This document shows positions 29,487-63,891 of a stretch of 64,000 nt of DNA, in pieces. The notes under the pieces are model-generated. The model was not told the DNA's origin, ran no database searches, and saw only the letters and a program-made list of their open reading frames with translations. The stretch is from NCBI GenBank assembly GCA_016748015.1, contig JAAOMT010000723.1:157349-221348 (forward strand), in the 5' to 3' direction. Numbering within the stretch: position 1 is the stretch's first letter; each line of letters begins with the position of its first letter. The translations under genes were made by a program, and so were the position numbers. The stretch is from Geosiphon pyriformis uo1. Taxonomy: Eukaryota; Fungi; Glomeromycota.

Positions 29487-31348
29487 ATGGACCTAAAGGC
29501 TACTTTTAATAGCAACATGTCTAAAAAGAAAGCACCAAAAGATGTTTTTTATGATCTTACAGGTGGCTCTTTTTCACAGAAAAAGAAAATTGTGTTTGGG
29601 AATGTTAAGTATTCTAATGATAAAAAAGATATCTCTCTAAACAAATCTGAGTTTGGTGACAATGTGTTTTCTAATGTGGATAGTCTATCTGGTGATGAGA
29701 AAATTTCTAATATGACTGATATTAATATTAAGTCTTTTCTGGATTCAGCTGCCAATACTTCTAAAGCAAAACATGTCAATACTAGTGCTGCTTTTGGTTC
29801 TCCACTTGGTTCTCCCAACTTTGACATAAATAATAATGAAGAAATGTCTTTTCCTTCTTATCTATCAATTTTTTTGAATAAAAAGTGGGTTGATCCCAAA
29901 ATCATCAAGACTCAGGTAGAGGTTTCAGTTAAGCAATCATTCACTTTGGACATTAATCTCTTGACTGTAGAAGGAAAATCAGTGACAGCAAAAACCCAAT
30001 TCATCAGAAAAATTTTTTCAACTATCAATGGTTTTGGGGAGACCACTATCCCTCAAAATTTGAAGAAATTATTTGATTGATATTTACTTTTAAGGAGAGC
30101 TACATTATTGGCCAGAAAGAAAGGAATTATCGTAAACAGTGATCTCAAAAAACAAGGGATTCATTCAGATTAGGCCATGATAATCAAAAAAATTCTTATA
30201 GATACGCCAAAAAAGATGATCATTGCCACAGTTTCTGAGTTTGGTAATATTAAGTCAATCAAAATTCAGCTGATTGGAATGTGGCAAAAGGCTGTGGTAG
30301 AATTTGCTGAATTGGAATAGACAAAACAACTGGCATCAAGATGGTTATTCCTCATTGGAAAAAACTCAGTATGTGTAGCTATGGCTGTAAAAGATTAGGA
30401 TACTTGGATGTCTAGGAATTGCTTTAGGGCATTTTTGTTTACTTTGCTGGTAGGAACAACTGTGTATGATTTTGGTACTCTTTTAGAAAGGGCTGGTGAG
30501 AAAACTTGTGTGATCAATTGTTTTCTGGAGACTGGCAACTGGACTTGCTGTACTGTTATTGGTTTTGAGTTTGAAAGTAAGCTTAAATTTGCATTTCACA
30601 TTGAGCTGATTTTTGGTGGTATGAAACTTTTTTGGGCTAGATTGGACTTGGTTTGGTATAAAAAATATGGGAAGTTTGGTCACTCAGCTTTGGAATGTGA
30701 TGCTTCTGACACTTTGGTGTCTGCTTCCTCTAAAAAAAACTTTAAAAGAATTGTTTTTGATGTGAATTGCTTTCAGCTGGCTAGATTGTATGCAAAAAAA
30801 ATGTTTCTATTTCTTGCTCTGCTGCTTTTGGTGACAAGTCATGGGCTCAAGTAGTCTCTTTTGCATCTTTTGGTGGTCTTCAATTTGATTCTGGTTATGG
30901 TTTTGGTTCTTTTTCTTCTGGTGTTTTGGGTTTGGATGGTGGTCCTTTTCTTGTTCTGGTCAAAAATTCATTTTTGAATGCTCATTTGACTTTTTTAGAA
31001 CATTCTTTAAAGCTATTGAGTGATTAAGTTTCTGACATTGTATGTAAACTTAGCAACATAGAATTGGTGCCTTTGGCTCTTCCTCCTTCTTCTGATCTTT
31101 TGGTTGCCCCAATAAACATCAATTTAGATTCGGACTTGAATATAGTTTTGGATGGTTCTGTGATAGTGCCTGTGCTTTCTTCTGTTATTCCAGCTCTGGG
31201 CCTCAGTAGCTCAAAAATTTTGATGACTAAGGTGGACTGTTTAAAGTTCAAATTGGTGGCTCTTAAAGCCTCAATCAGTTTGGTGCTAGTAAAGTTAGAT
31301 CAGTTGTGTGCTGGCTTAGGTTCTTAGGTGTTTTCTGCTTTCCAATGA
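29487..31348 (+). pseudogene. LINE ORF1 (gag-like; RRM-like segment, degenerate CCHC knuckle, C-terminal leucine-rich coiled coil)
   Basis: Fragments MDLKAT..., SEFGNIKSIKIQLIGMWQKAVVEF and WYKKYGKFGHSALEC (CxxCxxxGHxxxxC with Cys>Tyr TGT>TAT changes). Broken by stops and frameshifts. Confidence 0.8.
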
Positions 31349-34300
31349 TTAATTTAGTATGGAAGATTGCCACGTGCAATGTTAGAGGTATAAACAATCT
31401 AGCAAAACAGGAGGATGTTGTTTGTTGGTATTTGGAGTCAGATAACATGGTTTCCATTCTTACTGAAACTAAGATAAGGGCATGTGTTAGGTCTTGGATC
31501 AAGGACAAGTTTGAAGGTATTAGAATTTTTACTTTTGGTCTTGAGATGGGCTTTTTAGGCACAGTGGTGGCTATTATAATGAATAGTTCATTGGCTTGAC
31601 ATGTTTCAAAGATTGAAGAAATTCCTGGTCAGATTATTTCTGTTCATTTGCTGTTTAAAAATAAATTTTCAGTGATTATTCTAGGTTTGTATGCTGGTGC
31701 TTCAGTTAAGACTTGTTTTTCTCAGGCCTCTAGCATTAATTCTTTTATTTCTAAGACTGTAAATACAAGCTCTTTTGTGGTTCTTGGTGGTAATTTCAAT
31801 GAGAATAGGTTAAAAGATGTGCAAGTTTCAAGAGGTGTTTGGAGCTGGGTCTGGTCAACTCATTGATTAGATTTTCTTTAAGTAAGTCTAGCACTTGGAG
31901 CAATTTGCATGAGGTTTCAAAAACTATTAATGACGTTTTTGTAAGTGATAGTTTGGTTTCAGCTATTGTTGAACATGAAGTCATCTCTGTATCCAAATTT
32001 TTTGATATTAATCATGAAATGATTGGGATCTTGGTTGGGTTGGAAGGTTTGATTGATGCATGTTTGAACAATGTTTGCAAACAGGCTAATAAAAACACAT
32101 AGAAGTTTAAGATCAAAAATACAGATATGGCCAAGTGGATGCATTTTAAAGAACTTTTTTTGGCTAGGTTGGCTATGTCTCTAAGTTTCTTTTTAATCAC
32201 GAAAGAAGAAGGGGATTTAGATGAAATATGAAAAGTATTAAAAAGTGCATTGTGTGATTCAGCTGATGAAATATTTTCTAAACACTGGTTTAGCAAGTTT
32301 GACTGCCCAAAAAACAAGCAGTCTTCTAAGTTTTTCAAGTTGGAATCTTTATTGGCTAAGATTATGAAATGCTTGTCCTCAAGACAAATGTCAGAATTTG
32401 ATTATCTTGTTCAGGTTTGGTCAACTCTTGATGATGATGAGGCCTCTAAGTTTCTTGCCTTGCATTATGACAATCCTAAATTGGCTATGCTGCTTGAACA
32501 TTTGTCTAAAGCTAAGAAAGATTATCATAAGTCCAAATACTATGAGGCTGAGCTAACCAAGAATGGATGCATCAGAGATGCAATTGATAAGCATATAAAA
32601 AATTTTATTTTAGATAAAAGCAGTATGATCAGAAGTGTCTTAAAACAGCCATTTTGCAAGGTTGTTCTGAATCATTTAGTAATTGGAGACAAGCTAGTTC
32701 TGGAGCCTGGTGAGGTAAAATTCAAAGTAGATGAAATCATAATGGATTGGACTCATAAGAGAAGAGTTACTCCAGTCTTATCTGATTTGTGGGCCCATTA
32801 ATATAGTCCTTTGGAATATGTTAATAATACTGCTTTTTTAGAAGTAATATGTAACATTAGTTTGGAAAAGTTGTCTTTGGTGGTTAGTGGTTTACCCAAT
32901 AGAAAGACTGCTGGTCTTTCTGGTATACCTAACAAATTGTGGCAGCACTGTGGTGATAAGATCATGACATGTTTTTTGGATTTGTTGAATTCTTGCTTAA
33001 AGGTGGGTGATGTTCTCATGCTTTGGAAAAGGGCTTGGGTCTTTATGATTTCCAAGCCTTATGACTAAAATGGAGTTTTAACTAACACAAGACTAATTGC
33101 ACTCATTGAAACTGCAAGGAAAATTTTGTCCAAAGTTCTGTTAGATTGTATTTTGTCTGCATGCAGCAAGTTTGGCATTCTGCATGGTGACAACTTTTCA
33201 GTCTTGAAGAGCATTTCAACTTAGTCTCCTGTCTTTGCTGTGGGCTCAGTTGTTAAAGATGCTTTGAAGAAGGATCGTGAGATCTGGTTGGTCTTACAGG
33301 ATATGTGCAAAGCATATGATTCTGTTGGTTGGCATCATTTAAAGTTAAGCTTGGAGCACATCAAAATGTGTAGCAAATTTATAAAATTTTTTGGCAATAT
33401 TCACGAAAACAAATACAATAGGATAATGACTGACTTTGGTCTTTCAGATGACTATGTGGTCCATGATGATTTAGATCAAGGGGAGGTCTTTTTTTCACTT
33501 CTTTGGAGGATTTTTTATGACTCTTTGTTGTGTAAGATTAAAAGACAAGAACATTTGTGTGGTTATAGAATCAATTCAAATTTTGTAGCAAAAACTGGCA
33601 GAGTGGAGGCTAGTGGTAATAAATCTTCTTTTTTTACAACTGGTGTCTTTGTGGATGATACAATTTGGATAGAGAATGACCAAGCATCAACACAATACAT
33701 TTTAGATATTACTAGTGAATTCTTTGAGATTAATGATATTTTTATCAACAATGACAAGACTGTAACCATTCTTATCAACCAGAGAGTAGCAGACATCTCT
33801 TTAAGCATTAGTAATAGGCCCATATCTGTAGTAAGAAAAGGCGAATCTCACAGGTACTTGGGCATATTTTTGTCTACAGAGGGTTTGTCCAAACCCAGTC
33901 TTGCCAAGGCTTATGTGGATGTTAGGTTTTTTTCAAATATGGTTTTCAAGAAAACAGTGTTTGATAAGCAATTTTTATATTTGGTTTTGGCAGTTCTTAA
34001 GCCTATTGTCAATTATCATATGTAGTTTAGTTTTATTGCCAAGAGTGTGTATTGAAAATGAGACATTTTAATTAAAAGGAGGCTTAGGTCTAAAGCTCTT
34101 TTGCCAAGAGATTTTCCCAATAAAGCCTTGCATTACTTATCTTTATATGGTCTAAAATTGTTTAAACAGGTGCAAATTGAAGTCAAGGTTGCCTCAGTGA
34201 TCAGTTTTTCTAATGCATCTGGAATACTGGGTTGTTTGTTCGAATACCATGCTTTGAATTTATAGATTATAGGGTGGACACCCCTTTATCCATTGTGTTA

Positions 34301-36026
34301 TCCTGTTAAGTTGAGAGTTTGTCCATTGGATAATTTTTTGGCTGGTGTCATAAGGATTTTTGTTGATGTTAATGTTTTTTTGTCCAATCATATACCTTCT
34401 GCATTTTGTTGTTTCAGCCACATCCCAATGTTTGGGATTCTGGGACCCATCTCTTATTTTAATGTGGTACATTCTTTAAAGCATTTCAGTATTGCCTTTG
34501 GTAATGTTTTGCTTGACAAGCAGAGTTATATAATGGATTAGAAAACTTTTCAGCATTGGAAGAGGTTAAGTTCTAAAGGTCCAGTGCCAACTTGGTTCAC
34601 TAAAGCATTCGTGCATATAACCAATCATTTGTCAGGGCCTAGTGAAGATTTGGCTGTTGTGGATCATTCTAACTTTTTGTGTTCAGCCAACTTTTTAAGT
34701 GCTCGCGAACATTTGCATGAAGTGTGGGCTGGGGAGCTAAACATATTTACTAATAGTTCATTAAGTAGTCTGAATACAAAGAATATGGCTTGTGGGGCTG
34801 CAGCTTTTTTTTCTGAAATTAACATGGGTGTAAGTGTGGATGTTTAGGGTCTGCTGTTCTCTACTTTGGCAGAACTGCAAGCAATTGCTTTGGCTTTGGA
34901 ATGTGTTCCCTTATCATGCTCAGTTGTACTTTACTCTAATAATCAGGCAGCTTTGACTGCTTGTATATCAGAATGCGAATTGGATCAGCCTGACTTTCAA
35001 AATCAATATTGGGTGAAAAGACATTATATTGCTAATTTAATTAGGTCGAAAGACATTTCTGTTAGATGAATGAAAGTGAAAAGGCATTTGGATGTAATTG
35101 GCAATGATTGTGCTGATGTTCTGGCTTGTGCTGTGGCACATTTGGGCCTGGTTCTCTTTGCTAAGATTTCTAATAAGTTTCTTATAGCAGATGGGCTTGG
35201 CATCTCTGACAATGCTTGTCATTTTGTGCATAATGTTTTTTATACTATGAATTAGGCTTTGTAGAAAACTAGACCTGAAGTCAATATGCTAAACAAGTTA
35301 AGTATTGGGCATGTTGACTAAGAGTACACAGCATCTGTGTAGCATCTGGACTCTTATATGTTAACAGATTTTACTAGTAGAAAATTGGCTGCTTTGCGTA
35401 CTTATTTGATGAAGGCTGTTTACAGGAGATCACTGGTTGCTATTCATAAAAAACTATATAACAGAAGCTATCTGAACATCTTGTGTCTGATGTGTAGTAA
35501 AGTTGAGCTTTTTGATCATGCTTTCATGTGTGCTGCAGATGCTATGATTCATTCAAAGATTGTATCAGATTTGGTGATTTTGTAGAAGTCATTGGCAGGT
35601 GATTGTCTTTTAGTTTTATCTTCAATATTACTTGCTCTTATAGAGCCCATAGATTGTGGCATATATGTTGTAATATGCAAAAATTTTGCTTTTAAGAATT
35701 GGGCTAAGGAAACTGTTTCTATATTTGGTAACAAGAAGAAGACCATGTTGGTAGTTGTCAATTTCATCCGTCATTTGGCAGATGACCATCATAGTAGAGT
35801 ATGGTTGTTAAGGTCTAAATTTTGTGCTGATATAGAAAAGTGTGGTTTAGTTTGTGATACTGGTGCTGTTTTTGTTTCTTTATGTAGTTTGTCTTGTTAG
35901 CTGTCTGAAGGTGTGGTTTATATGCTTGGTATTATTGAGTTATTTGCTGTTAGTTTTGGTTCGAGGAAGTGTTGTTTATTTTTTTCTGGTTTGGATGTCA
36001 GTTCAGGAGTCTTTATAAGTATATAG
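31345..36026 (+). pseudogene. LINE ORF2: AP endonuclease, reverse transcriptase, RNase H, C-terminal zinc knuckle
   Basis: APE KIATCNVRGIN, ILTETK, GGNFN. RT IALIETARKILSK, QDMCKAYDSV, LDQGEV, FVDDTIW, RYLGIFL. RNase H IFTNSSL..ACGAAAFF, AELQAIALALE, YSNNQAAL, KVKRH..GNDCAD. CLMC..E..DHAFMC. Many in-frame stops. Confidence 0.92.
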
Positions 36027-38856: not shown

Positions 38857-39262
38857 CCTTTTTTTTTATGTCTAAAATTTCCCAAAGAGCAATTTTTTAA
38901 AAAAGAAATTTTTGTTTTTAGTTATTCTAGTATTATCACTATTAATATTTTTTAAGTCAATAATCTTTTTATAATAAACATAAAAGCTGCTTTAAATGAC
39001 AAAATGTTCAAGAAAAAAATACTTAAAAGAACTTTTTATAGTTCTGTTAATGATACTTTCTTTTAGAAAAAAGAGTATCTGTAAGTAATATTAAGCACTT
39101 TGGTAATGAAAAAAAAATCTCTTTGGTTAAATTTAATCTTAGTAATAGAATATATTTAAATATAAATAATAGTGAAATTAGTAATGTTTTAATAAATACT
39201 AATGGTAGTTTTCTTTTTGGCTTAGCTATTATAACTCCTAAAGCTAAAAGATTTAATGTCAG
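38857..39262 (+). mobile_element. 5' stub of a second, more decayed LINE of the same family
   Basis: Colinear with 29373-29770, e.g. aaagctgctttaaatgacaaaatgttcaagaaaaaaatacttaaaag vs aaggctacttttaatagcaacatgtctaaaaagaaagcaccaaaag. Ends abruptly at the LTR at 39263. Confidence 0.8.
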
Positions 39263-40053
39263 TATTACAGTTTAAAAATTTAATAGGAATTATAAATAAT
39301 ATAAATTAGCCAATCATGAAATAGCACAGCAACAATTTATAAAAAGAAATAATTTACAAATAACAACAAACACTATTTTATAATAGCAGCAAGCACTATT
39401 GTACAAAAGCAACAAGCACTATTTCACAATAGCAGCAATCACTATTTAGAAATAACAAAAATAGAGTATTACAAAACATTATTTTGTAAAACAATAATTA
39501 TATATATATACAATAGTTTTTAATAATAAAAAATCAGAACAGCTTCAACTAAAAGCAACAAATATCTAAATAAAAATAATAAATTGAATTAACATCACAA
39601 TTATAAGATTAACAATAGAGTTCACATATTCTTTCTAGCAAATAAAACTATTATTCTATCTTTGAATTCTTTGGAAAAATAATTTCTAATCAAGATTATT
39701 CATGTGGTTACTAATTAAATTGAAAAAGCTTTATTATATACTTAGGGAAATTGCAAAAAGACTATTAACATTCTGTGTTTCTAGATTAAAAAAACACATC
39801 AGACAATTGCAAGAATAGTCTTAAAGAAGACCCCAAACAGTGGATAGATTTCAGATTAGTCTCTAAGAAGAAGTACACAACATACAAAGACAACTAGAAT
39901 TAAAAAAAAGACTTACATCACAACATTAAGAGAAAACTTTTAGTACATTATCATTAATATCCAACACATAAAATCGAGGAACTCATGAAAGACTGATTGC
40001 AATTAAAATAGAATATCAGTAATTAAATATACCAAGAAAACATTCCCATAATA
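39263..40053. mobile_element. Solo LTR, copy 1 (791 bp), no target-site duplication
   Basis: Colinear with 51550-52415. Termini TATTAC...CATAATA are decayed TGTTAC...TAACA. Flanks tcag / gtgt differ. Four 23-bp internal repeats. Confidence 0.85.
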
Positions 40054-43489: not shown

Positions 43490-43889
43490 CTATTCTTCTC
43501 ATGAATTCGAATCTACTTATCCTTTTAACTGTAATTTTTAGTTCTTTCTTATCTTTCACTAATAATAACTGAGCTATTTTAACCAAAGGTAAGAATATTG
43601 TCTGTGCTATTTTTTTGTTTGGCTCTATGATATAGATCTTTTTTGAGTTATTTTGTAGTATTGCAATAATATTTCCTATATATTCTGCATCAATTATTTC
43701 TTCTTTAATGTTAATCTCTTTTTTTGCTAAACTATTCCTGGATGCTAACTGAACCATTGTTGTTGCTAGAATTTCCAATGCTACCTTTAGATCAATATAT
43801 GTATGCAAATGTGGTTCCAATTTGATGGTCTTTTTTCTTGGATATCTCAAATCAAACTTTGTATTGGTATTATGTGTGTATTCTGGCAT
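43490..43889 (-). pseudogene. dUTPase domain in the pol of element A
   Basis: HNTNTKFDLRYP, QLASRNSLAKK, IIDAEYIGNI, KIAQTIF, RISRFEF: degenerate motifs 1-5. Confidence 0.8.
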
Positions 43890-44860
43890 GATACCTTTAT
43901 TATTATTGCTGAACTATTTAAGTTCTTGCTCTTTGGTAAGATTAGGAAATGCAATATATTGTTCTGGGTTTAAATCAGAGTCTAAATTGTTGTTATTTTT
44001 GTTATTATTTGGAATAGAGCTAGAACTATTGTTTTCATCATTATCATTGTTAGAGTTTAAATTAGAATTGAACTGTAATTCCAATTCTAATATACAGCTG
44101 TTAATTGGTTTGTCTTCTTCTGAAATTGTGTAGATCATGTGTGATAGTAAATTGTAAATAAGATCACACTCATTACAATACTAGAAGTTATATGGAATTA
44201 AATAGTGGTCACATAATTGGGTGTTTAGCTGTTCTAATCATTGTTCTTGCTCTTCTCTTGTTGGTGCCAAGCACTGGTAATGCTCATAAAATTCTTTTGG
44301 ATTGTTCTTAACATTGCCAAAAACATCAAAAGTTGAGATGTATTCGGGTTTAGAAAGTAATAAGAAGTTGTTTTTAATTTCCAGTAATTTACTGGTTGTC
44401 ACACCTTCTGCTTTCACACTTGCCATTCTCAAAATCTCATGTTTGTTGTGGGGATATCTTTTTAATTATCACAATGCTTTTTTTCATGCATCATCAATTG
44501 GAGTTTCTTTTTGTACTCAGTCATTTATTAGGATTGTATATTGGCACATTTCATTATATATTCCTCTACATCCAAGAATGTCATTTCATATTTCTTTATT
44601 GGATAAGATGGTTCCATAGGCAAGACAAGGCTCATTATCTTATTTTTCTTGCTGTTTTGATCATTCAAACTATTTGAGAATGCAAAAATGACAATAGAAT
44701 TTTGTTGCTGTTGGATATTTTTCATTGTTGCCACAACATGTGCCCATTGATGACAATTTCTTGTCACAATTAATACACACCAGTTTTAGTTGGCAATAGT
44801 TATATGGTTGTGATAAAGTATAGCTGTATAAGATATAAGTTGTAGTAGTTGTTGGTGTCA

Positions 44861-48739: not shown

Positions 48740-51700
48740 CTAATTACTGATTTTAAACTCCAAATTATAACCAAAATCAGAATCAGTATTAGTCTTATTA
48801 CATTCAAATGATATAACAACTGATATATGTACCTCTAATTTATCAAGTTCTAGCACCTATTATTTATCAATTACAACAGCCACAAATAATTTATCAAACT
48901 TTACCAATTCAAGCGCTGCCACAAAATTCAGCTCAAATATTATTTAGAAATCAAAGCCCAAGAATTACACACATTTAACAGAATTGGAGATTAGCAATAG
49001 TTATATATTAGCCAATCTCCAGTTTATTATCACAGTTATCAAAATTATGCCAGTAGAGTTCAGGAACTGAATATATTCAAAACCTGAATTTTCAGAACTA
49101 TTTAAGTCTCTTAGTAACCCCAAAAGTTGCCATATTTAATCTATTGGAAACTCACCAAAACCAAAAACTTACCAATAATATTTTACTAGCAACTGTTACA
49201 GAGGATGAATCACTTACAATCATATTTTTCTTCAAATTAAAAACCTTATTAGAAACATTATTATTTAATAAAGCTGCTTTTAATACCAAATCAATTACTG
49301 TTATATATACTGATATTAAAGTTAATAGCCATCCTATCAAGCTAATCTTTAATAGTAGTTTAGTAAACAGCATTATTACTTGACAACTCATGAACCAATT
49401 AAATTGCTAAATTAATTATGCTGTCAGCACCAGAATTATTATTACTAATGGAGTGATAAAAATGGCTATTGGTTAGATTAATAACTTTTTATTTGAAGTC
49501 AACAGCATTATAATATTCATCAAGATTTTTATAATAAAAGCCATACAGTACTAAGCTTTCATTGGTAATAACTGGCTGTTCAAAACCAATACTATGCTTG
49601 ACTAAAATACCTAAAAGCTACAGCTTAGTTAAAATGGTTTACAAACTTAAGTATCTGCTACTTGTAATCATTTTAAACCATCCACTATGCATTTACTGAT
49701 AAAATTTGAGAAAAAAAAAGAAAAACCCATCTGGAAAACTTATTAAGTTTCATGAATTAACAAAGATCACAATAAACTATTACCAATTCTGATCTGAAAA
49801 AAAAGACAACTTCAAGCTACTATCTCAACATATATTTTATATGATATTACACTACCAAGACAACCAACTTATTACTGATCCAAACTAATTTGCATTAATT
49901 GTGATAAGAAATTGTTAACAATAGACATATAATGATAAATAACCAATAACAATTAAGTACTATTGTTGTCCATATGTTTTTGAATGATTTGAACAATCTA
50001 AACAATAGGGAAAATGAAACAATAAGTCTTGTTTTATATGTAAAACAATTCTTCTTAATGAAAAAATGTGGAACAACATTCTTAAACAAGAAAAAACATA
50101 CAATGAATTGTATTGGTATAAAATTTTAATTAACAACTGGATATAAAGAAAGACTTTAATCAATGCCACTTGAAAATGAGTGCTGAGACAATTGGAAGAT
50201 TATCTACATAACAAACACAAGATTTGAAGAATAGTAAGTGCCAAAGCTAAAAATGCTTCACCTAATAAAATATTGAAAATCAAAAATAACCCATTAACTT
50301 TTTTTAAACCCAAATTTGTCTTAACTTTTAATATCTTTGATGACATCATAGACAATTCAAAACAATTTTACAAGCACTACTAAAACTTAGCACCAACTTG
50401 TAAAAAGCAAAAGCAAAGACTAAAACAATTAAATATAAGATTGTATAAATATTGCCTAATTTCCAATGACTTTGAATATTATAATAATTGTGATCTTATC
50501 TACAATCTACTATTATACATGATCTATTTGATTCCTAAAGAAGCAAAATCAATCAGCAAATGTGCAACAGAATTGAAATCAAAATTTAATCTTAATTCAA
50601 ACTCTGACAATAATAATAACAATAGTTTTAACTTTATTCACTATAGCAATAACAATTTAAACTCCAATTACAATCTTAAATAATGTATTACACTTTTATA
50701 ACTGTTAATAAAACAGAAACTAAAATAGTTTAACAATAATAATAAAGATATTATATCAGAATACATGCATAATACCAATGCAGGATTTGATTTCAAATAT
50801 CCAGGAAAAACTGTCATCAATTAAAACCATATTTGTGTACCAGTATAGATCTAGAAATTTTGGCAATAATAATGATTCAACTAGTCTTTAAATCTAGTTT
50901 AGTAAAAAAAAGATTAATATCAAAGAAGAAATAATTGATGCAAGATATATAGAAAATATCATTATAATACTATAAAATAACTCAGAAAAAAGATATGTAA
51001 TTGAACCAAATAAAAAAATAACACAGACAATATTCTTGTCTTTGGTTAAAATAGCCCAATTAATATTAGTAGAAACAAAGAAAAAGTTAGGAATTACAGC
51101 AAAAAAAATAAAAAAATTTGAATTCACAAGTAAAATAAATGTATTAGTTAATATAATAAAGGAAGAAACTATTAATAAGGGAAAAATTATTTCTATTTAT
51201 CAATCAATTTCTATTCTACTATATGACTAGTACATAGTAGTTATAGAGAAGAAAGTAAAAAACCAAACCCAAATTTTTGAAGCTAAAACAAATATTTATA
51301 AATCAGAAAAAATTGCTATTATTAATCTTTACATACCAGTCAAGAACAACAAACACATTAAGATCTCTATATACAATACAACTAAAGACACCATAGAAGT
51401 ACCAAATGGAATCATTATTAGATACTTAAGCACTAAAATTGAGAACCAATTATTTATTACCATTCCAGACTTTCTACAGCTTTGTAGATATGTAGATATT
51501 ACATCACAAATAATATACAGACAAGATGAATATTATTTGCTTTAACCAGTATTACAGTTCAAGAATTTAATAGAAATTATAAATAATATAAATTAGCCAA
51601 TCATAAAATAGCACAGCAACAATTTATAAAAAGAAATAATTTACAAATAACAGCAAGCACTATTTTACAATAGCAGCAAACACTATTGTGCAAAAACAGC

Positions 51701-54700
51701 AAGCACTATTTTACAATAGCAGCAAGCACTATCGTGCAAAAGCAGCAAGCACTATTTTACAATAGCAACAAGCACTATTTAGAAATAATAAAAATAGAAT
51801 ATTACAAGACATTATTTTGTAAAACAATAATTATATATATATACAATAATTTTTAATGATGATAAAAAAAACAGCTTCAACTAGAAGCAACAAATATCTA
51901 AATAAAATCTTATTCAAAAAGAATTAATAAAAAAAATAATAAATTGAATAAACATTACAATTACAAGATTAACAATAGAATTCACATACTCTCTTTAGCA
52001 AATGAAACTATCATTCTATCTTTGAACTCTTTGAAAGAATAATTTCTGATCAAAATTATTCATGTGGTTACTAATTAAATTGAAAAAAGCTTTATTATAT
52101 ACTTAAGAAAATTGCAAAAAGGCCATTAACATTTCGTGTTTTTAGATTAGAGAAACACATTAGACAATTGCAAAAATAGCCTCAGAGAAGATCTCAGACA
52201 GTGAGTAGATTTCAGATTAGCCTCTGGGAAGAAGTACACAACATACAAAGACAACTAGAATTAAAGAGAAAACTTATATCACAACATCAAGAGAAAACCT
52301 TTAGTGTATTATCATTAATATTCAACACATAAAATTAAGGAACTCATAAGAGACTAATTGCAATTAAAACAGGATATTAACAATTAAAATATACCAAAAA
52401 AACACTCCCATAACACCAGAACAATTGAAACAAATGAATTTAAGAAACTTAAATTTACTTCAATATATATAATTCAAGATACTACTTAACAATTTCACTG
52501 ATGTTTTTGCCAGTAAAAATGAATTTAACAGAACTGATATTATCTAACATCAGATCAAAACTGAAAATACAATGCCAATCAAACAAAGAACATATAAAAT
52601 ACTATTAGCTAGCCATAAAATTATTCGACAGAAAATCAACAAAATATTGAACAATGAATTAATTCAATTATTAATAAGTCTATAGTCATTACCAGTAGTA
52701 CTTGTCTGTAAAAAGAATAGAAAAATCCACTTTTGTGTGAATTATAGAAAGTTCAACAGTATTACTTGTGAAGATAGTTATCTAACTTTACAAATCCAAA
52801 AATTATTCAATGCTTTTAGAGAAAAAAAATGGTTTTTAACACTAAACTTAAACAGTAATTACTGGCAAGTAGCCATGAATTTAACCAATAAAGAGAAAAC
52901 AGTATTTACAACCAGAGAAAAAAACTTTGAATTTAATGTTATGTTATTTGACTTAATTAATGCTATATCTATCTTTTAATAGCCTATGGAAATTGTTTAT
53001 ACTAAATTATTATGGAAATCAGTAATAGTCTACTTAGATAACACTAATATGTTTTCCAAAACATTTAACAATTATTTCTACTATCTATAACAAGTGTTTG
53101 AAAAACTAAGAAGAACTAAACTAAAGTTAAATGTTACTAAGTATTTCTTTGGAAAAACTGAATTCAAGTTTTTGGGATATGTTATAAGCAAAGATGACAT
53201 CAAAATGAATTCAGATAAAATTAAAATAGTTAAGAACTTTCTAGTATTAACCAACTTAACAGAACTAAGAGTATTCTTGAAATTCACAAAATACTATTGT
53301 CATTTTATCCAAAACTTCTCCAAATTGGCTCAACTATTTTATTAGCTCCAAACAAAAAATGTCAAATATGAATAGATAGAAACTCAACAAAAAAGTTTCA
53401 ACATTTTAAGAAAAAAGTTTATTTAAGCTTCAGTATTGATTTATTTAGATCATAACAAACCATTTATCATTACAATAGATGCATCAGATCAAACATTAGG
53501 AGCCATATTGTTTTAAAAAAGATCAAATAAACAAGAACATCCAGTAGTATATGCTAGCAGAAGTTTAAGTCCAGTTAAAAAAAATTATACAACTCCAGCA
53601 TTAGAATACTTAGCTATCTATTGGATTGTTATCAAATAAAAAGAATATTTAAATCAAAAGTTTGACATATACACAAATCACAAGAAATCAACATTAATTC
53701 AGAAGCAAAAATTTGGAAATAATTATTATATAAGATAAAAAATAGAACTATTACTATTTAATTATATCATATATTATAAAAAGGAAAAAAAAAAACAGAA
53801 ATGTTAATGGTTTGTCATAAATAAAACAAATTTAAGAACATTTTAACTTAAAAATATCACAAAAAATAAACACACAAAAATACCAACAATTCTAATATTA
53901 TATTAATACTTAACAGTTCAAGAAAAAATTATCTCAAAAAAAACAAAACAACATAAAACAACAAGCAAAATATTTGATTATTTACCAAAATATATTATAC
54001 CAGTAAAACAGAAAATATTCAGATCAGCCATTCAAAGTAATTACAAAGCCAGAAAAAAAACAATACTATTCAATATGCATTCAAATCCAATAGCAAAACA
54101 TTTTTATAAAAAAGCAATTATGGAAAGAACCAGAAAAAAATATTATTGGCCATTTATATATTCAGATATTATTCAATATATTCAAAATTATGATGTTTGT
54201 TAGAGAAAAAAAAGAACAAGATCCAGTAAACTGCTAAAACCAATCAAAGTAAAACAACTATTTAATTAAATTGGAATTGACTTAATTAAACCATTAACAA
54301 TAATCAACAAAAGCAATTAGTACATAGCAATAACCATAGACTATTTTACAAAATAGCCAGAAACAAAAGCAATTCAAAGAACAGATACAGAATTCATAGC
54401 TGAATTCATACACCAAGATTTAATTTGTCAACATAGATGTCCAAAAAAATTATTATCAGATCAAGAAACTTACTTTGTAAACAAAACATTAACAAAATTA
54501 AGTCAAAGATTTAGAATCAAAAGATCATTATTATCATTATATTATTCATAAATAAATAACTTAATCGAAATGTTCAACAAAATATTGTGTAAAACAATAA
54601 CTAAGATCAACCAAAAAAACCAGGATAAATGGAATTTATTTATATTATAAGTATTATTTGCTTATTAGACAATAAAACAAGATATCACATAAGCAACACT

Positions 54701-55583: not shown

Positions 55584-56791
55584 TATTACCACTTGAGACA
55601 AATCCTCAATATTTAAAACTTGTATATTAACAAAACAAAACAATTGTTTAACACAATTATATTGCAATAACTTGAATAATTTGTGAGAAAAAACAACCTA
55701 TTCATACAGACATAAGCTATATATTAGTTACAAGCTAGATTTTAAGGCTGATCAGAATTACTATTTTATCTAACAATAAACACAGTAATTATTAATCAAT
55801 TAAGAAGAATTATTAATGCTGTTATCAGTAAAATTTTAGCTATTAATTAGCATGAAATTATCCTTATAGTTCTTATCAGTAATTAACATGTTAATATCAA
55901 TCCAAATTATCACTTATTATTTAATCAATTTATCACATATCACGATTCAATTAATAATCCAATTAGTACAACAGAAATTAAGATGATCAAATTACACAAT
56001 ACCCTGAACTTTGTAACATTATAAAATTCGCCGAAATTTATAGAAATTCCCCAAATTTATGAATAGTTTATCTAAATTAATCAATAGTTCAGTGAAATAA
56101 CTTGTAGTTCATCAAAATATATCTTTAGTTCGCCGAAATTTGAGCAAAGAGAAAAAGTGCAAGTTCATAGACTAGTACTACAACAAGTTGTATAAAAGAA
56201 GAGCTTTTCTCTTCAAGAAAATATATTTTACTTTAGATTTATCACTTAGAACCATTCCTACACACACAAAAAAAAATAAATATCAAATAATTCGAAAAAC
56301 CAATTTTTTTAAATATTGCACTTAGAAAATCTCCAAAAACCCAACTAACATTTTTGAAATTGATTAGCTACCAATTTTAGTAAACTGTTAGTGACTTCAA
56401 GCCTAAATAGAAAACGTTTCCCTTAATAAAATCCTATTTCTTTTACATTTCTTTTATTTTTCTTTTCTTTTCTTATTACAATTATTAAAGTAGCCTACAA
56501 ACAAGATTTTTGTAGAAGAGTTGACTTTTACAGCAAAATAACTACACCTTTTTAGTGAGCTTCCAGATGAGCAATTCCTGGAAAAAAGTTGACATTTACT
56601 ACAATGTAACTACATAAAGTAACTGGCAAGGAATTGGTCATTCCACTCATAAGCCCAGCAGTTCAAATTATAGGAGATAATTTGAAGATAAATTCAGTTA
56701 CTGGAGGTTCAACTACTTCCTGGAAACGTGAATTCACAACAAATCAACATTAACAACATTTAAGAAAAGAGACTAAAAACCTCTGGTAACA
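55584..56791 (+). repeat. 5' LTR of element C (left boundary uncertain)
   Basis: Ends GTAACA immediately before the PBS. The left end is tentatively set at TATTACC (decayed TGTTAC). Confidence 0.55.
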
Positions 56792-56806
56792 TTTGGTGCT
56801 CTCCCA
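56792..56806 (+). promoter_or_regulatory. Putative primer-binding site of element C
   Basis: tt-TGGTGCTCTCCC directly after the LTR end is complementary to a tRNA ending ...AGCACCA. The tRNA identity is not determined. Confidence 0.7.
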
Positions 56807-56836: not shown

Positions 56837-59800
56837 ATGGCGACCATACCAGACACAACAATTCTAGAGTATTACTAGTCAATTTACACCCACTGCAAGC
56901 AAAAATTCAACATCTCAGACGGAATTAAAGTTATCAAGAAATCAGTATACCAATACATTGAAAACCACATTAACAATTATCTTTTTGGAAATTACAATAT
57001 CTCAAAAGTTAGAAACAACCTTTACAATAATTTAGTGCATTATTCACAGTTAAGAATTGAAGACCTTAACAGTAAAACACTTGCCACTTACTTTCAAGAA
57101 CTTAATTTTAACATTTTCAAGTACTGTAAAAAAACATATTCAGTGCAGTCTCAATACTCTATTAATTTTGAATCAAAGACAGAAACAAGCAACAAAGGCA
57201 AACAAAAATTGAAACAATACTCAAAAACCACCCCAAATACTTCAATACTACCAAAAACAACTGCCAAACACTTGCAAACATCTGAACAAAGAACCAATGT
57301 CAAATTACCACTTTCTATTACACTATTTCCAATTTCACTTGTTCAATCACAAACACCAAGTTCACCACTTAAACATTTCTCCAGACCAGAAGATTATCAG
57401 TTACTTAGAAATCCTACTCAACAGCAGGAACCAATATTAACAAGTGCCAATATTATTGATTACTTACAAGAAAATAAAAGTAATCATTCAAAAAGTCTGA
57501 AAAGTGAAGAAATTAAATTAAAACAAGAAGAAACTACAGAAAACAAAGAAGAAATGGCAACTGCTTACATTGTAAAGATTCCAGAATTTACTGGTAAAAA
57601 TAATGATACCAGTCCTCAAGAATGGCTTAACAAAGTTCAAAAAGCAGGAGATGTAAATGGTTGGATTGCAGCAAGAATGCTCAAAGCAATTCCATATTTT
57701 CTCCAAGGAACTGTAAGAGAATGGTTTGAAAACTTAGAAGAATCATTTGAAAACTGGCAAGCATTTAAAGATGCTTTCTTACAACAATTCACTGACAACA
57801 ACACCTTTATTACTCTCTGCAATTGCTTTCACAATATCAAACAAGAAACATCTAAAACTGTCATGACTTATCTTGGAAGATTCAACAAATTTTTTCGACG
57901 GATTTGACAATTGGAAACCAATGATTATTATTCTGATGCTCAAATTCTAGACCAGTTTATAACAGGATTAAAAGACAAACTGATTAAGAAAGTCTGCCCA
58001 CATGCTCTAGTAGACTTAGCAACTGCTATCAGACATGCAAAGAACTATGAAATGGCTATAAAAGAAGCAAACCACACCAAACTTATCAACCTAGCTATTG
58101 GAGAAACCAGTTCAGCAGCTGAAGAGAAGATAGACCAACTCACAAAGAAGGTTGAAAGCTACTTCACAAACCAACAACAACAGCAACAACAACCACAAAG
58201 ATATCAACCCCCACAACAATGCAACCAAAACAAATTTGGATTACCCTTCAACAACCAACCTCAAAATTGTTATTATTGTGGAATTCCAAGACACTGGAAA
58301 CGAGATTGTAGGAAATTACAAAGAGACCAACAAAATAGAAATAATCAATGTTATTCTTCATCACAACAATCTTATTACCAACCTCCACCACCAACTTATT
58401 ATTTACCAAAACCCCAAAATCAAAACAATTACTATCAACCAGCTTCACAACCAATGCAGCAACAATATCACCAACCTTTACCAATTCAGCAATATCAGAC
58501 ACAACCCCCTCAACAATATTAAGTACCAGCCAGAAAATTGGTTCAACATAACCAATTCACACCTCAAAATCAATTTCAGAATAATAACAATAGGATCAAC
58601 CCAAATAACCAATTAGTTCCCCGAAATTCTGGTCAACAAAGACCAAATTACTTTCACACTCAACCCAGTTATTTAACAATAACTGAAAAATCGAATTTTC
58701 AACAAACTGTACTTTCTGAAGATAAAGCTGCAGTACCAAGAACAAACCCTTCCAACCATACTATTCCACTAGCTTAAATTGCTCAAAATACCAACCTTTC
58801 AGATATATTTTCATTCGAATTTGAAGCAAATGAATTACCATTCTTGCTTAATAATACAGCAGCTAATGAACAAAAAGCTATTACTGCTATGTACACTGAA
58901 GCTACAGTTGAAGGAAAACCCATCCAATTAATTCTAAACAGTGAATCAATTAGAAGTATTATCACTTATTAGTTAATGCAGCAGCTTCAAAGAACTGTTG
59001 ACAAACCAGCCCAAACTGTAATTGTTATAGCAGATGGTATGAAAAAGACACTAGTAGGAGAAATTAACAATTTTCCATTCACCATTGATGGAATCACCAT
59101 TCCAGTCAAAGTGCTAGTCATGAATGCACCCCAATACCAAGCTCTGGTCGGAAATAATTGGCTTCTTAAAGCCAATGCAAACTTAGATTGAGAAACTCAA
59201 GAACTAAAAATCTCATACCAAGGACAATACACTATAGTACCTGCTACTTGTGATATTTTTAACAAATGATCAGAGAAAGCCCCAGTATTTGAATTTAAAG
59301 AGGAGAAAAAAATACCACTTACTGAAACCTACATGGCACTTGGATCAACATCCAACTGGGCTGAGGAAACAGAACAAGAGATTTTTGAAGAATCAAGAGA
59401 ATAGAAAAAAGTTAGATATTTTACTCCAGAATCACAGAAACAACCACCCTATATTCCACTTAAATGCAAAGATTGTAACAAGAAACTTTCATCAATGGAA
59501 GCATGTATTTCTCCAGAAGAGAAATATGAAACTCGTACCTGTTACTTTTGCAAAGCATGCCATAGAGAATAATTTGGATCTCCAAAAAGAAGTGAAAAAT
59601 AGGACAACACACTTTGTCTTACATGTGGAGATATGTTACCAGAAGAATGCAACTGGATTGATGTTGTAATGAGAGGAGAAGTATATGATCAAACCTGTTA
59701 ATATGCTCTATCAATTTCGGAAAAAGTCAGAAGAGGAACACCATTTAATGCAGCATACAACAGTGCTCTCAATAAACTTTACCACTACTCTCATAATACT

Positions 59801-62438
59801 GAAATGATTTTTGATCTAGCAATGGCATTGATCAATGGAGCCACTTAAGGAAATGTCTGCCAAATGAAAGAAACTGAATATATTGAGTATACCATAGAAT
59901 TAGCTGGATTTGATTATAAAAATGAAGTAGAAACCTACCACCAAATTGCAAGCCACACATACCCAACTCAAGAAGCTCAAATTCAATAATTAGAACAAAT
60001 GAACATTCAATTGTGTGAAGAATGCATCATGCTTTGTGATAACAAATAGTGTCCAGAATGCTATGCTCTTAGCATTCTCCTGCCAAAGAAAAATGATGAA
60101 AATAAAATCGAATTTAGAGTATCTGAACTGGTAGAAAAACTACCAACCACTCCCATCTATTTTCTTGAAAAGCAACCATTTCTACAACTTAAATATTTTG
60201 ACAACCATGGCCAAGGAATCAGACCAGAAAAAGCACACGAAATTGATGCTAAATATGACCTAAGATACCCAGGAAAAGATACTTTGGTTTTCCAACCAAA
60301 GTCTTTGACAAAAATCAATCTCAAAATTGCTCTTGAAATTCTACCTGGAGCAATGGTTCAAATTGCATCCAGATCATTATTGGCAAGCAAAAGAATTAAT
60401 ATTAAAGGAGGAGTTATAGATAAAGAATATACTGGAGACATTGCCATCATATTGCAGAATAAAACAGACAAACCATTCAAGATTGAACATGCTAAAAAAA
60501 TTGTTCAAGCAATTTACCTACTCTTAATTAATATTTCGGGTTTACAATCAGTTAACAACAGAGAACAATTGGGAAAAAGTGAAAGAAGAACTCAAGGTTT
60601 TGGTTCAACTGGATGATTTACAGTTCCAGTAAATATAGCTCTTAATACACAAAATAAATCTCACCAGATTCTTTTCACCTTTTGGAGAACATCACGAAAT
60701 TTACACTTGCTCAAAACTCACCACTACACAACAAATCTTTGAATCCAATAAACAAATCTGTTTAAAACATGAAATCTCAATTCCAAACGTTTATATTCCC
60801 AAAAGAATGAAAAAATTTTGAGTTACATTCTACAACCCCAATAATTATCCTATTGTCTTATTAAACAAACTAAAGATTGAAATCATACACAGCAATATTT
60901 TTTAAGATGAAAACCCTCAAATTGTCTCTAATTTCATCGAAATTGTAAGGCACACTCTACTCCCAAATCCAAATATCATTTGCACTACTGAAAACTACCA
61001 CTTTTTGAAAGAAAAATTCTCTTAAATCAACATGGGTCTCTTAGAACCTCAACAACAAAGACAATTGAAACAATTGATAGCTGAATTTGCAGATATATTT
61101 GCAAAAAACAACAATAACCTGGGAAAAATGGATATTGTTTAACATCAGATCCATATAGAAAATGCTCCACCAAAACATTAGCAAGCTTACAGAGTGCCAC
61201 CTACCAGCCACCAATTCATCAGAGAAGAAGTCCAGAGAATGCTTAATAACGGATTGATTCAACCATCAAGAAGTCTTTGGGCCTCACCAGTAGTTCTTGT
61301 CAAAAAGAAAAATAGAAAAATCAGATTTTGTGTTGACTATTGCCAATTGAACAGTGTAACAATTGGAGATGCTTACCCTTTTCCAAGAATTGATGACATG
61401 CTAGATGCTCTAGGAAAAGCCAAGTTTTTCTCAACTTTAGACTTGGAAAGTGGATACTGGCAAGTCGAAATGAACCCAAAAGACCAATCCAAAACAGCAT
61501 TTACCACCCAGGAAAAAAACTATGAGTTCAATGTTATGCCTTTTGGACTCTGCAATGCACCAACAATATTCCAGCAACTTATAGATGTTGTATATGAAGG
61601 ACTTTTGTGGCAATTAGTAGTTGTCTATCTTGATGACACTGATGTATACTTACCAAGCTTTAAGACTCATCTCATCCACCTGCAAGAAGTTTTTCAACAA
61701 TTATGGAAAGCAGAATTGAAATTAAACATTGAAAAATGTCACTTTGGAAAAACAAGCTTAATCTTCCTTAGACATATTGTTAGCAAAAATGGAGTCAAAC
61801 CAAATTCTGGAACAATTAGTGCTGTTAAAAACTTTCAAACTCCCAAAAATACCACAGAACTATGAAGATTTGTAGGATTAGCCTCTTACTATCAAAAATT
61901 TATAAAAAAATTCTCAGAAATTGCCAAACCACTCAATTATTTTACCAACAAAAATGTACCATACAAATGGATTGAAGAACAACAAAAAGCTTTTGAAACT
62001 TTCAAAACAAAATTGACAACAGCCCTAGTTCTTGCTTACCCAGACTTCAACAAACAATTCCAATTAACCACTGATATTTCACACATAGCATTCAGTGCCA
62101 TCTTATCACAATTAGATAAAAATGGCCAGGAACAAGTTATTGCCTATGCCAGCAGAACACTCAAGTCAACAGAACTCAAATATGGCTCAACTGAATTGGA
62201 AGCCACTGCAGTCACCTGGGCTCTCAAATACTTTCAACAATACCTGAAGAATGAAAAAGAATTTGACATAATAACTAACAATATTGGCCTCAAATGGCTT
62301 AATAAAAAGAAAACTAAACAAAGTGCTAAACAGTCTCGATAGAATGACTTCCTAGCAGACTACAGATACATTGTACATCACAAACCAGGAAAACTACACA
62401 CCAATGTTGATAGTCTCTCAAGAATGAGACAATGTTAA
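56837..62438 (+). pseudogene. gag-pol of element C (gag, PR, Cys-rich domain and dUTPase in one frame; RT-RNase H after one shift)
   Basis: ORF pieces at 57035, 57911, 58538, 58976 and 60284 share a frame; those at 61194 and 62013 share another. Many TAA/TAG/TGA interruptions. Confidence 0.88.
60190..60616 (+). pseudogene. dUTPase domain in the pol of element C
   Basis: KAHEIDAKYDLRYPG, QIASRSLLA, GGVIDKEYTGDI, IVQAIY, RRTQGFGSTG: trimeric dUTPase motifs 1-5. Confidence 0.9.
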
Positions 62439-62505
62439 TACCAACATCAACACCAACAAAACACCAACAAACTTAACAGCAAAACAAACAACAAAATCAA
62501 CAACA

Positions 62506-63891
62506 ATGAATCCAGAAAACTACAACAACATCAAAAACTATTTGGAGACTCTCACCATGCCAGAAAATTGGTCTCCAAGTAAAAAACATTGATTACAACA
62601 CCAATCCAAACAATATTTTATACACCACAACAAAATCTATTACAAATATCGTAAAAACCCAAACCAACCATTCAGATTAGTACAGAAAAAGGAAAAAGAA
62701 ACAATTTTATACAACATGCACACAAATCTTTCTTTAGCACACTTGGAAAGAGATGGAACAATTCAAAGAACTCTTGAACATTATTTTTGGCCTCACATGC
62801 AAAAAGACATTTGACAATATGTAGAATCTTGTGATAGTTGTCAAAAAAGAAAAGGAACTTGCCCCACAGAACTTTTAAATTCAATTAAAGTTGAACAACC
62901 TTTTAACAAAGTTGGAATTGATTTAGTCGAACCATTACCTATCACAACCCAAGAAAATTGCTATATTGCAGTAGCAGTAAATTATCTTACCAAATGGCCT
63001 AAAACTAGAGCCATCCAAAGAGCAGATACAAAATCAGTAGCAAATTTCATCTATGAAGACATTATTTGTAGACATAAATGTCTAATTGAACTCTTATCTG
63101 ATCAAAAAACACATTTTGTAAACAACTTGATACAAGAAATTTGTGAATGATTCAATGTTAAAAGACCTCTATTATCACTTTATTGCCCTTAAACAAATGG
63201 ACTTGTAGAACGTTTCAATAGAACATTGTGTGAATCTTTAGCCAAAGTCTTAACAAACTTTGAGCAGGAATGGAATATCTTTATTCCATCAGTGTTACTA
63301 ACATACAGAATGCTAAAACAAGATACTACAAAACACACACCATTTGATCTTACTTATGGAAGAACAGCAACATTACCAATTAATTTCACAGTGGAAACAT
63401 AACCAGTGCAACCAATCAATGAAAAAAACTTTCAAGAAACACTCCAAAGAAGGGCCTACACTTTTCTTAGTACACTGAAAGGAAAAAGAAGAATAGCAGC
63501 AACTCATATTAAACATTCTCAAGCTCAACAAAAAGAAAAACATGACAACAAATTACCACCTATTACCAACAAATTTAAAGTTAGAAATAAAGTTCTCTTA
63601 CACAGAACTAAGGCTAAAAAACAATGGAGTGGGAAATTTGAAAACAAATGGAATGGACCATTTTATATTCACAAAATTCTAAACAATAGATCATATAAGT
63701 TAAAACTTGATGACAAAGTACTAGCAAAAGTTGCACATGGAGATAAATTGAAACACTATCATTCCAAAAACAATCCTGAACCATTAATTCCACAAATTGG
63801 TACATATTCTCCTTTAATTAATCTTGAAGATATTCCCCGAAATTTAGAACCAATAATTATAATAGAACAACAACCAAACTTAAACACTTAA
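62506..63891 (+). pseudogene. Integrase of element C (own ATG, single frame, no chromodomain visible)
   Basis: MNPENY..., zinc finger HTNLSLAHL...CDSC, DDE-type core, GPF module WNGPF. Internal stops. Confidence 0.85.

What the first reader, a model, noticed from the sequence alone, without database searches (positions are those of the whole stretch)
59250..60616. Ty3/Gypsy pol carries an unrecognised multi-CxxC domain next to a dUTPase, between protease and RT
Seen: in element C the gag-PR frame continues ~300 codons through LKCKDCNKKLSSM..C, CYFCKAC, CLTCGD, QTC, a helical segment, LCEECIMLC and CPEC, then into a dUTPase. A (LVCINCDKKLSSMGTCC..FYCHFC; LCDH..YCNECDL, ~44150-44800, - strand) and B (LICINCDKKL, ~49880-50520) keep the same Cys pattern although C is a divergent subfamily. 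Known: dUTPase occurs in some retroviruses and a few fungal Ty3 elements, but I recognise no standard pol domain matching this Cys-rich insert. Inference: it is a captured zinc-binding accessory module, possibly a counter-defence or chromatin-targeting factor, defining a distinct retroelement architecture.
Basis: partly seen in the sequence, partly recalled or inferred. Interest (0 to 1): 0.8.

Follow-up and report, generated by a model that had tools for sequence, protein, structure and literature searches.

The report
Triple zinc-finger module beside retrotransposon dUTPase
Decayed jumping genes of a fungus carry, between their protease and their dUTPase, a conserved stretch of about 215 amino acids with three likely zinc fingers that matches no catalogued protein family, and it likely served as a protein-binding adaptor that helped the dUTPase keep uracil out of the element's DNA copy.

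Summary
Observation largely confirmed. Copy C reads gag-protease-[Cys module]-dUTPase in one frame (57554-60613) broken by 13 stops; A and B carry decayed homologues. The window is very likely Geosiphon pyriformis: 164 of 164 named homologues come from it. One unnamed, undecayed ENA protein (P0187) has protease-module-dUTPase-RT in one open frame. Across six groups only 36-45% alike (most pairs), 12 of 43 invariant columns are Cys. Thirteen core Cys form three clusters (CxxC-x24-CxxC; CxxC-x19-CxxxC; CxxC-x3-C-x4-CxxC) around a helical core. dN/dS between C and A is about 0.4, so the module was under purifying selection. There is no hit in Pfam, PDB, PHROGs or fold searches; the first finger models weakly like treble-clef fingers. 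The module is net acidic and always lies before the dUTPase (107 of 107). Its function is untested. I favour an adaptor for the dUTPase/RT step (0.35) over counter-defence (0.25) or chromatin targeting (0.12). dUTPase between protease and RT is published for fungal and rotifer Gypsy elements; this domain I did not find in print. The scan noted other Cys/His modules in this slot in other genomes. Verdict: new variant of a known kind.

The parts
56785..56805 (+). Likely end of C's 5' LTR (..CA) followed by a TGG primer-binding-site-like motif
   Evidence: Sequence pattern only; the 3' LTR would lie beyond the window
57554..58315 (+). C gag: capsid and CCHC knuckle
   Evidence: Pfam Retrotrans_gag 3e-11, Ty3_capsid 4e-8, zf-CCHC 0.02
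58856..59212 (+). C aspartic protease, active site decayed (LNSES; LDSGS in P0187)
   Evidence: Pfam RVP_2/Asp_protease E about 0.002; 62% identical to P0187 protease
59456..59560 (+). Module finger 1, C-x2-C-x24-C-x2-C, predicted treble-clef-like
   Evidence: model pLDDT 68-89 for residues 1-40; weak matches to FYVE/LIM/ribosomal fingers
59615..59698 (+). Module finger 2, C-x2-C-x19-C-x3-C (third Cys is Tyr in this copy)
   Evidence: All four Cys invariant across subfamily majorities; model poorly resolved here, pLDDT 45-51
59699..60013 (+). Module helical core, acidic
   Evidence: pLDDT 86-94 over model residues 81-140; net charge -10 in P0187; best fold match Z 5.5, not significant
60014..60061 (+). 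Module finger 3, C-x2-C-x3-C-x4-C-x2-C
   Evidence: Five Cys invariant in the five groups that cover it
60086..60160 (+). Acidic linker ending in a possible protease cut site (PIY|)
   Evidence: the cut site is inferred, motif chosen after the fact
60224..60613 (+). C dUTPase
   Evidence: Pfam PF00692 E 7e-17
60804..62438 (+). C spacer, RT and RNase H, ending at a stop at 62436; frame shifted from the dUTPase by a deletion near 60670 that other copies lack
   Evidence: Pfam RVT_1 4e-29, RT_RNaseH 4e-29; loose ends at 60670-60673; P0187 open from protease into RT
62506..63888 (+). C integrase with own ATG at 62506; H2C2, rve and SH3-like tail, no chromodomain hit
44139..44789 (-). Module in copy A, 9 of 13 core Cys kept
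43509..43913 (-). dUTPase of copy A
   Evidence: Pfam E 1e-14
49880..50500 (+). Module in copy B, frameshifted, 7 of 13 core Cys kept
   Evidence: dUTPase remnant at 50729-51131

Best explanation
The interval is a conserved domain of about 215 residues in the Gag-Pol polyprotein of a dUTPase-bearing Ty3/Gypsy lineage, built of three likely zinc fingers and a predicted helical core, and it likely worked as a protein-binding adaptor that kept the neighbouring dUTPase at the site of reverse transcription. Shown: position, Cys conservation, purifying selection, an intact natural example. Inferred: zinc binding; packaging into the particle as part of Gag-Pol; possible release by the protease; contact with dUTPase or RT, so that dUTP would be destroyed where cDNA is made. 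The three window copies are dead, eroded by C-to-T/G-to-A change.
For: Fixed order: of 299 fetched proteins with the module, 107 have a dUTPase after it and none before, 101 have a protease before it, and 18 of 18 with both read protease-module-dUTPase. Intact P0187 has protease, module, dUTPase and RT in one frame. Cys kept 14 of 17 vs 82 of 190 other residues between C-type and A-type majorities, Fisher p 0.002; 12 of 43 invariant columns across six groups are Cys. C vs A transversions at codon positions 1/2/3 are 55/37/77 (p 0.0008); dN/dS 0.42, against 0.30 for RT-RH and 0.28 for gag. Precedent: betaretroviral dUTPases are fused to a zinc-finger nucleocapsid, proposed to attach them to sites of DNA synthesis (PMC4531489, section 9 read); Juno elements have an extra Zn knuckle beside the dUTPase (PMC5408684, section 3.1 read).
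Against: No direct evidence for any partner. The module is net acidic (about -15 in P0187; only finger 1 is neutral to basic), unlike basic nucleocapsid, so nucleic-acid tethering in the betaretroviral manner fits poorly. Tyr/Asn-hydrophobic motifs at both ends of the module may be protease sites, which would separate it from the dUTPase. Adjacency could reflect a permissive insertion slot rather than function. The papers read report dUTPase between PR and RT in other elements without mentioning such a module, so the enzyme may not need one.
Confidence: 0.35

Rival explanations
1. Counter-defence accessory protein: cut free by the protease, it binds a host restriction or repair factor (for example uracil-DNA glycosylase or a silencing factor), like the zinc-binding lentiviral Vpr/Vif (recalled analogy).
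For: Acidic helical core suits protein binding or DNA mimicry. Faster divergence than the enzymes: 40% identity to P0187 vs 59-65% for dUTPase, protease and RT. Possible cut sites on both sides. The host clearly attacks these elements: CpG observed/expected is 0.13 in C and 0.06 in A vs 1.04 in host genes.
Against: No host partner tested; no sequence or fold match to a known antagonist. Divergence equals that of gag (dN 0.62 vs 0.61), so it shows no special arms race.
Confidence: 0.25
2. Chromatin or DNA reader that travels with the pre-integration complex and steers target choice in place of a chromodomain.
For: No chromodomain hit on C's integrase. Treble-clef fingers include chromatin and DNA binders; weak structural neighbours include GATA4 and LIM fingers.
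Against: The module is not joined to the integrase, which follows a stop and has its own ATG in C. No PHD, chromo or MYND-type Pfam hit for any of 23 members at E up to 5. Net acidic.
Confidence: 0.12
3. Structural or assembly role: a folded spacer or second nucleocapsid-like element for particle assembly, protease timing or RNA packaging, unrelated to the dUTPase.
For: Lies in the gag-pol frame next to the protease; finger 1 and the stretch before it are neutral to basic; conservation level matches gag.
Against: Standard Ty3/Gypsy elements assemble without it (established knowledge); gag already has a CCHC knuckle.
Confidence: 0.2
4. Neutral passenger: captured host or transposon DNA kept only because it is in frame.
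For: Within one subfamily every column is equally conserved apart from transition decay, so within-family conservation alone proves nothing.
Against: Cys-biased invariance across groups that are mostly 36-45% alike, dN/dS well under 1, intact in P0187.
Confidence: 0.03

Closest known systems
dUTPase-bearing fungal Ty3/Gypsy elements: PosPlaTy3-5 of Postia placenta, elements of Phanerochaete chrysosporium and Tuber melanosporum (PMC2864245, four passages seen)
   Same: Ty3/Gypsy element with a dUTPase between protease and RT.
   Different: The passages seen mention no Cys-rich domain before the dUTPase; that paper centres on chromodomain elements, while C has no chromodomain hit and its integrase appears to be a separate frame. 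Its supplements were not read.
Juno/Vesta/TelKA LTR retrotransposons of bdelloid rotifers (PMC5408684, section 3.1 and passages read)
   Same: dUTPase between protease and RT; Juno has an extra zinc motif next to it.
   Different: Juno's motif is one Zn knuckle after the dUTPase; here about 215 aa with three all-Cys clusters and a helical core lie before it.
Betaretroviral nucleocapsid-dUTPase of MPMV and MMTV (PMC4531489, section 9 and passages read)
   Same: Zinc-finger protein directly N-terminal of a retroelement dUTPase.
   Different: There the partner is the basic gag nucleocapsid, joined by a frameshift and resistant to cleavage; here it is a separate, acidic, non-CCHC domain downstream of the protease.
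Treble-clef zinc fingers (LIM, FYVE, GATA, L24e/TRASH; grouping recalled)
   Same: Finger 1 superposes weakly on FYVE (2yw8_A, Z 3.7, rmsd 2.2, 40 residues) and a ribosomal finger (8r6f_a, Z 3.9, rmsd 2.1, 42 residues); finger 2 has the C-x2-C-x19-C-x3-C spacing I recall for TRASH/FCS fingers.
   Different: No significant sequence or fold match to any one family; the three-finger plus helical arrangement matches nothing found.

Membership tests
Ty3/Gypsy LTR retrotransposon (Metaviridae) | Domain order protease-RT-RNase H-integrase | tested here: met
   Pfam and tblastn on C, A and B
Ty3/Gypsy LTR retrotransposon (Metaviridae) | gag with retrotransposon capsid | tested here: met
   Retrotrans_gag, Ty3_capsid, zf-CCHC
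Ty3/Gypsy LTR retrotransposon (Metaviridae) | Paired LTRs with primer-binding site | tested here: inconclusive
   LTR-end/PBS-like motif at 56785; C's 3' end lies beyond the window; no LTR pair found for A or B
Ty3/Gypsy LTR retrotransposon (Metaviridae) | RT groups with Ty3/Gypsy on a tree | not tested
   No named RT reference set was fetched
Ty3/Gypsy LTR retrotransposon (Metaviridae) | Integrase is part of the Pol polyprotein | tested here: inconclusive
   Stop after RNase H in C and A, and an ATG in another frame in C; the copies are decayed, so two copies do not settle it
Chromovirus clade | Chromodomain at the integrase C-terminus | tested here: not met
   Only an SH3_Tf2-1-like tail, then about 40 residues to the stop, in C; one decayed copy tested
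Trimeric dUTPase | Five catalytic motifs (motif set recalled) | tested here: met
   Pfam PF00692 above cut-off in C, A and P0187; motifs intact in P0187, partly decayed in C
Betaretroviral NC-dUTPase | Basic CCHC nucleocapsid fused to the dUTPase | tested here: not met
   The module is all-Cys, net acidic and downstream of the protease
Catalogued Cys-rich families (zf-FCS/TRASH, LIM, MYND, PHD, KDZ-associated CxC) | Match to the family profile | tested here: inconclusive
   No such family among the 17 weak Pfam matches of 23 members at E up to 5, none for the P0187 module; profile-profile search against Pfam was not available
Treble-clef zinc finger fold | Knuckle plus helix binding one zinc through four ligands | tested here: inconclusive
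   Finger 1 modelled at pLDDT 68-89 with weak matches only, Z under 4 and Foldseek E over 0.4; zinc binding not measured

The most novel reading that the evidence does not exclude
Fungal Gypsy elements of this lineage carry a retrovirus-style accessory protein: a protease-released, three-finger adaptor that pairs with the dUTPase as a uracil-defence cassette, the dUTPase lowering dUTP and the module blocking or removing a host uracil-repair or deamination enzyme, much as lentiviruses without a dUTPase use Vpr or Vif. The protease-dUTPase slot would then be a hot spot for swappable counter-defence modules in fungal retrotransposons.
Probability: 0.15. Interest if true: 0.75.

Novelty: new variant of a known kind. 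Interest (0 to 1): 0.43.

Why it matters
It defines an uncatalogued domain that explains hundreds of 'hypothetical proteins' in the Geosiphon pyriformis annotation (353 hits, 421), in a genome reported to be 41.2% LTR sequence (PMC11952901, passages). The role of dUTPase in LTR retrotransposons is stated as unclear in PMC2864245. An intact natural copy (P0187) makes the module and its link to the dUTPase directly testable. If it proves to be a counter-defence factor, it would be a rare accessory protein of that kind in a fungal retrotransposon.

Tried and rejected
No whole genome was held, so no genome-wide DNA survey was possible. Pfam: nothing for the module. PDB sequences: best E 0.23, 4.8, 0.42. 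PHROGs: two weak hits, E 0.015 and 0.37, treated as chance. Phage records: no match. ESM Atlas: no usable hit for the P0003 module; best score 0.82, unnamed or zinc-ribbon clusters, for the P0187 module. Pattern scans of JGI metagenomes and IMG/VR found no confirmed relative. A word-based search with the P0187 module among longer proteins found only P0187 among 63 candidates; it also missed the known Geosiphon relatives, so it is weak. Sequencing runs: no RNA holder listed. Module-dUTPase complex prediction: not folded, no verdict. A second, degenerate dUTPase repeat after the enzyme: not supported, 92 of 500 shuffles scored as high. A recalled likeness of finger 3 to the second Cys motif of badnavirus polyproteins was not tested; a paper search gave 0 papers. 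Ty3 cleavage-site literature to check the junction motifs was not found.
Full report
Observation. Copy C is a decayed LTR retrotransposon on the + strand. One frame runs from the gag ATG at 57554 through capsid, knuckle, protease, the Cys-rich interval and a dUTPase to 60613, with 13 internal stops. RT, RNase H and integrase follow. Of 13 core Cys, C keeps 12, A 9 and B 7. Among 6336 frame windows, only this module and a microsatellite reach six CxxC motifs.

Source and decay. All 120 listed homologues of C's interval (of 353) and all 44 of A's are Geosiphon pyriformis hypothetical proteins, so the window is very likely from that fungus or a close relative. One DNA run gave 11,227 contigs on 59200-60900, which shows a multi-copy family; 92 of 130 places where C differs from other copies are T-for-C or A-for-G. 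CpG observed/expected is 0.13 in C and 0.06 in A against 1.04 in host genes, in line with methylation-driven deamination (inference; CG methylation of transposons is reported for Rhizophagus irregularis, bioRxiv 10.1101/2021.03.30.436303, passages). Other copies carry extra bases at 60670-60673, so the frameshift after C's dUTPase is likely private and the ancestral frame ran from gag to RNase H.

Is the module under selection? Within the C subfamily every column is conserved apart from transitions, which is uninformative. Between C-type and A-type majority sequences, 96 of 207 residues are identical; Cys are kept in 14 of 17 cases against 82 of 190 for other residues (p 0.002). A profile search of 1.84 billion representatives gave 421 hits, 150 listed. 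Of 20 looked up, 19 are Geosiphon and one, P0187, is an unnamed ENA protein. P0187 is undecayed and reads protease-module-dUTPase-RT in one frame of 1064 aa. Across P0187 and five Geosiphon groups (36-45% identity for 12 of 15 pairs, 64-71% among the three A-type groups), 12 of 43 invariant columns are Cys; the 13th core Cys is Tyr in the majority of one group (hits assigned to a sixth group or to none, 18 of 373 rows, were not shown). At DNA level, C vs A gives transversions of 55/37/77 at codon positions 1/2/3 and dN/dS 0.42, compared with 0.30 for RT-RH, 0.33 for integrase and 0.28 for gag; these figures include decay after insertion and are rough. On a tree of 23 module sequences P0187 groups with the C subfamily (99/95) on a long branch, inside the Geosiphon diversity.

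Anatomy. Finger 1 is C-x2-C-x24-C-x2-C, finger 2 is C-x2-C-x19-C-x3-C, then come about 100 helical residues, and finger 3 is C-x2-C-x3-C-x4-C-x2-C. AlphaFold2 on P0187's module (38 sequences) reached pLDDT 70; finger 1 and the helical core are confident, fingers 2 and 3 are not. No fold match is significant; many of the weak Foldseek neighbours are LIM, FYVE, GATA or ribosomal fingers, consistent with a treble clef for finger 1. The module is net acidic, about -15 in P0187, with an acidic linker behind it. Similar Tyr/Asn-hydrophobic words stand at the junctions on both sides (ETY|VA, ETY|MA, EAY|QV after the protease; PVN|II, PIY|LI, EQY|IA before the dUTPase). They may be protease sites, but the motif was chosen after the fact and I found no paper to check it against.

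Context. Of 299 fetched proteins with the module, 107 have a dUTPase after it and none before; 101 have a protease before; 18 of 18 with both keep the order; 103 short gene models show no other domain; 3 have a gag match after the module, likely chimeric gene models. No host-gene context was seen, but 271 weaker profile hits were not listed.

Mechanism. Being in the gag-pol frame, the module would be made and packaged with the enzymes (inferred). Its fixed place before the dUTPase, and the betaretroviral precedent of a zinc-finger protein fused to a dUTPase and proposed to bring it to sites of DNA synthesis (PMC4531489), favour an adaptor for the dUTPase/RT step (0.35). The acidic charge and possible cut sites count against a simple nucleic-acid tether and leave a counter-defence adaptor (0.25) or an assembly role (0.2) open. 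Chromatin targeting (0.12) is weakened because the integrase follows a stop at 62436 and has its own ATG at 62506. A neutral passenger is nearly excluded. No binding partner was tested successfully.

Comparison with what is known. dUTPase between protease and RT is described for PosPlaTy3-5 (PMC2864245) and for bdelloid Juno, Vesta and TelKA, Juno with an extra knuckle (PMC5408684). PMC3248453 has no occurrence of dUTPase or zinc; PMC11952901 has no occurrence of dUTPase; the Entomophthora preprint notes dUTPase enrichment among retroelement domains only. Nine full-text searches listed no paper describing this module; I saw most only as listings, the Geosiphon genome paper did not appear, and no supplements were read. 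Earlier notes of this scan report other Cys/His modules of 33 to 460 aa in the same slot in other genomes; none was found by sequence, and I did not test them.

Verdict. A real, selectively conserved, uncatalogued three-finger domain of a dUTPase-bearing Ty3/Gypsy lineage: new variant of a known kind. Function unproven. Interest 0.43.

Noticed in passing
window 62436-62508 (+); copy A near 41670 (-): A stop follows RNase H directly in C and A, and in C the integrase begins at its own ATG in another frame, suggesting a separately translated integrase.
   Followed up: partly
window 29500-36000 (+): Decayed non-LTR (LINE-type) retrotransposon with endonuclease-like motifs (read by eye) and an RT hit.
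   Followed up: no
window 28000-64000 vs 1-28000: Sharp change in CpG observed/expected, from mostly 0.7-1.2 in the gene region to 0.25 or less in the transposon block.
   Followed up: partly
window 39260-40051 and 51547-52413: An 868-bp direct repeat at 82% identity; one copy adjoins the 3' end of A and the other interrupts B between dUTPase and RT, possibly an LTR and a solo LTR.
   Followed up: no
window 2458-23359 (+): Host genes with F-box (two), BTB-BACK-TLD and RING domains.
   Followed up: no
window 56879-57553 (+): An open stretch of 225 codons in frame with gag lies upstream of the ATG at 57554, with no Pfam hit; gag may have a longer N-terminal extension.
   Followed up: no
P0187 residues 738-880; window 60614-61050: A conserved spacer of about 140 aa between dUTPase and RT (34% identity between P0187 and a C-type protein) with no clear family; dUTPase-like repeat not supported.
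   Followed up: partly
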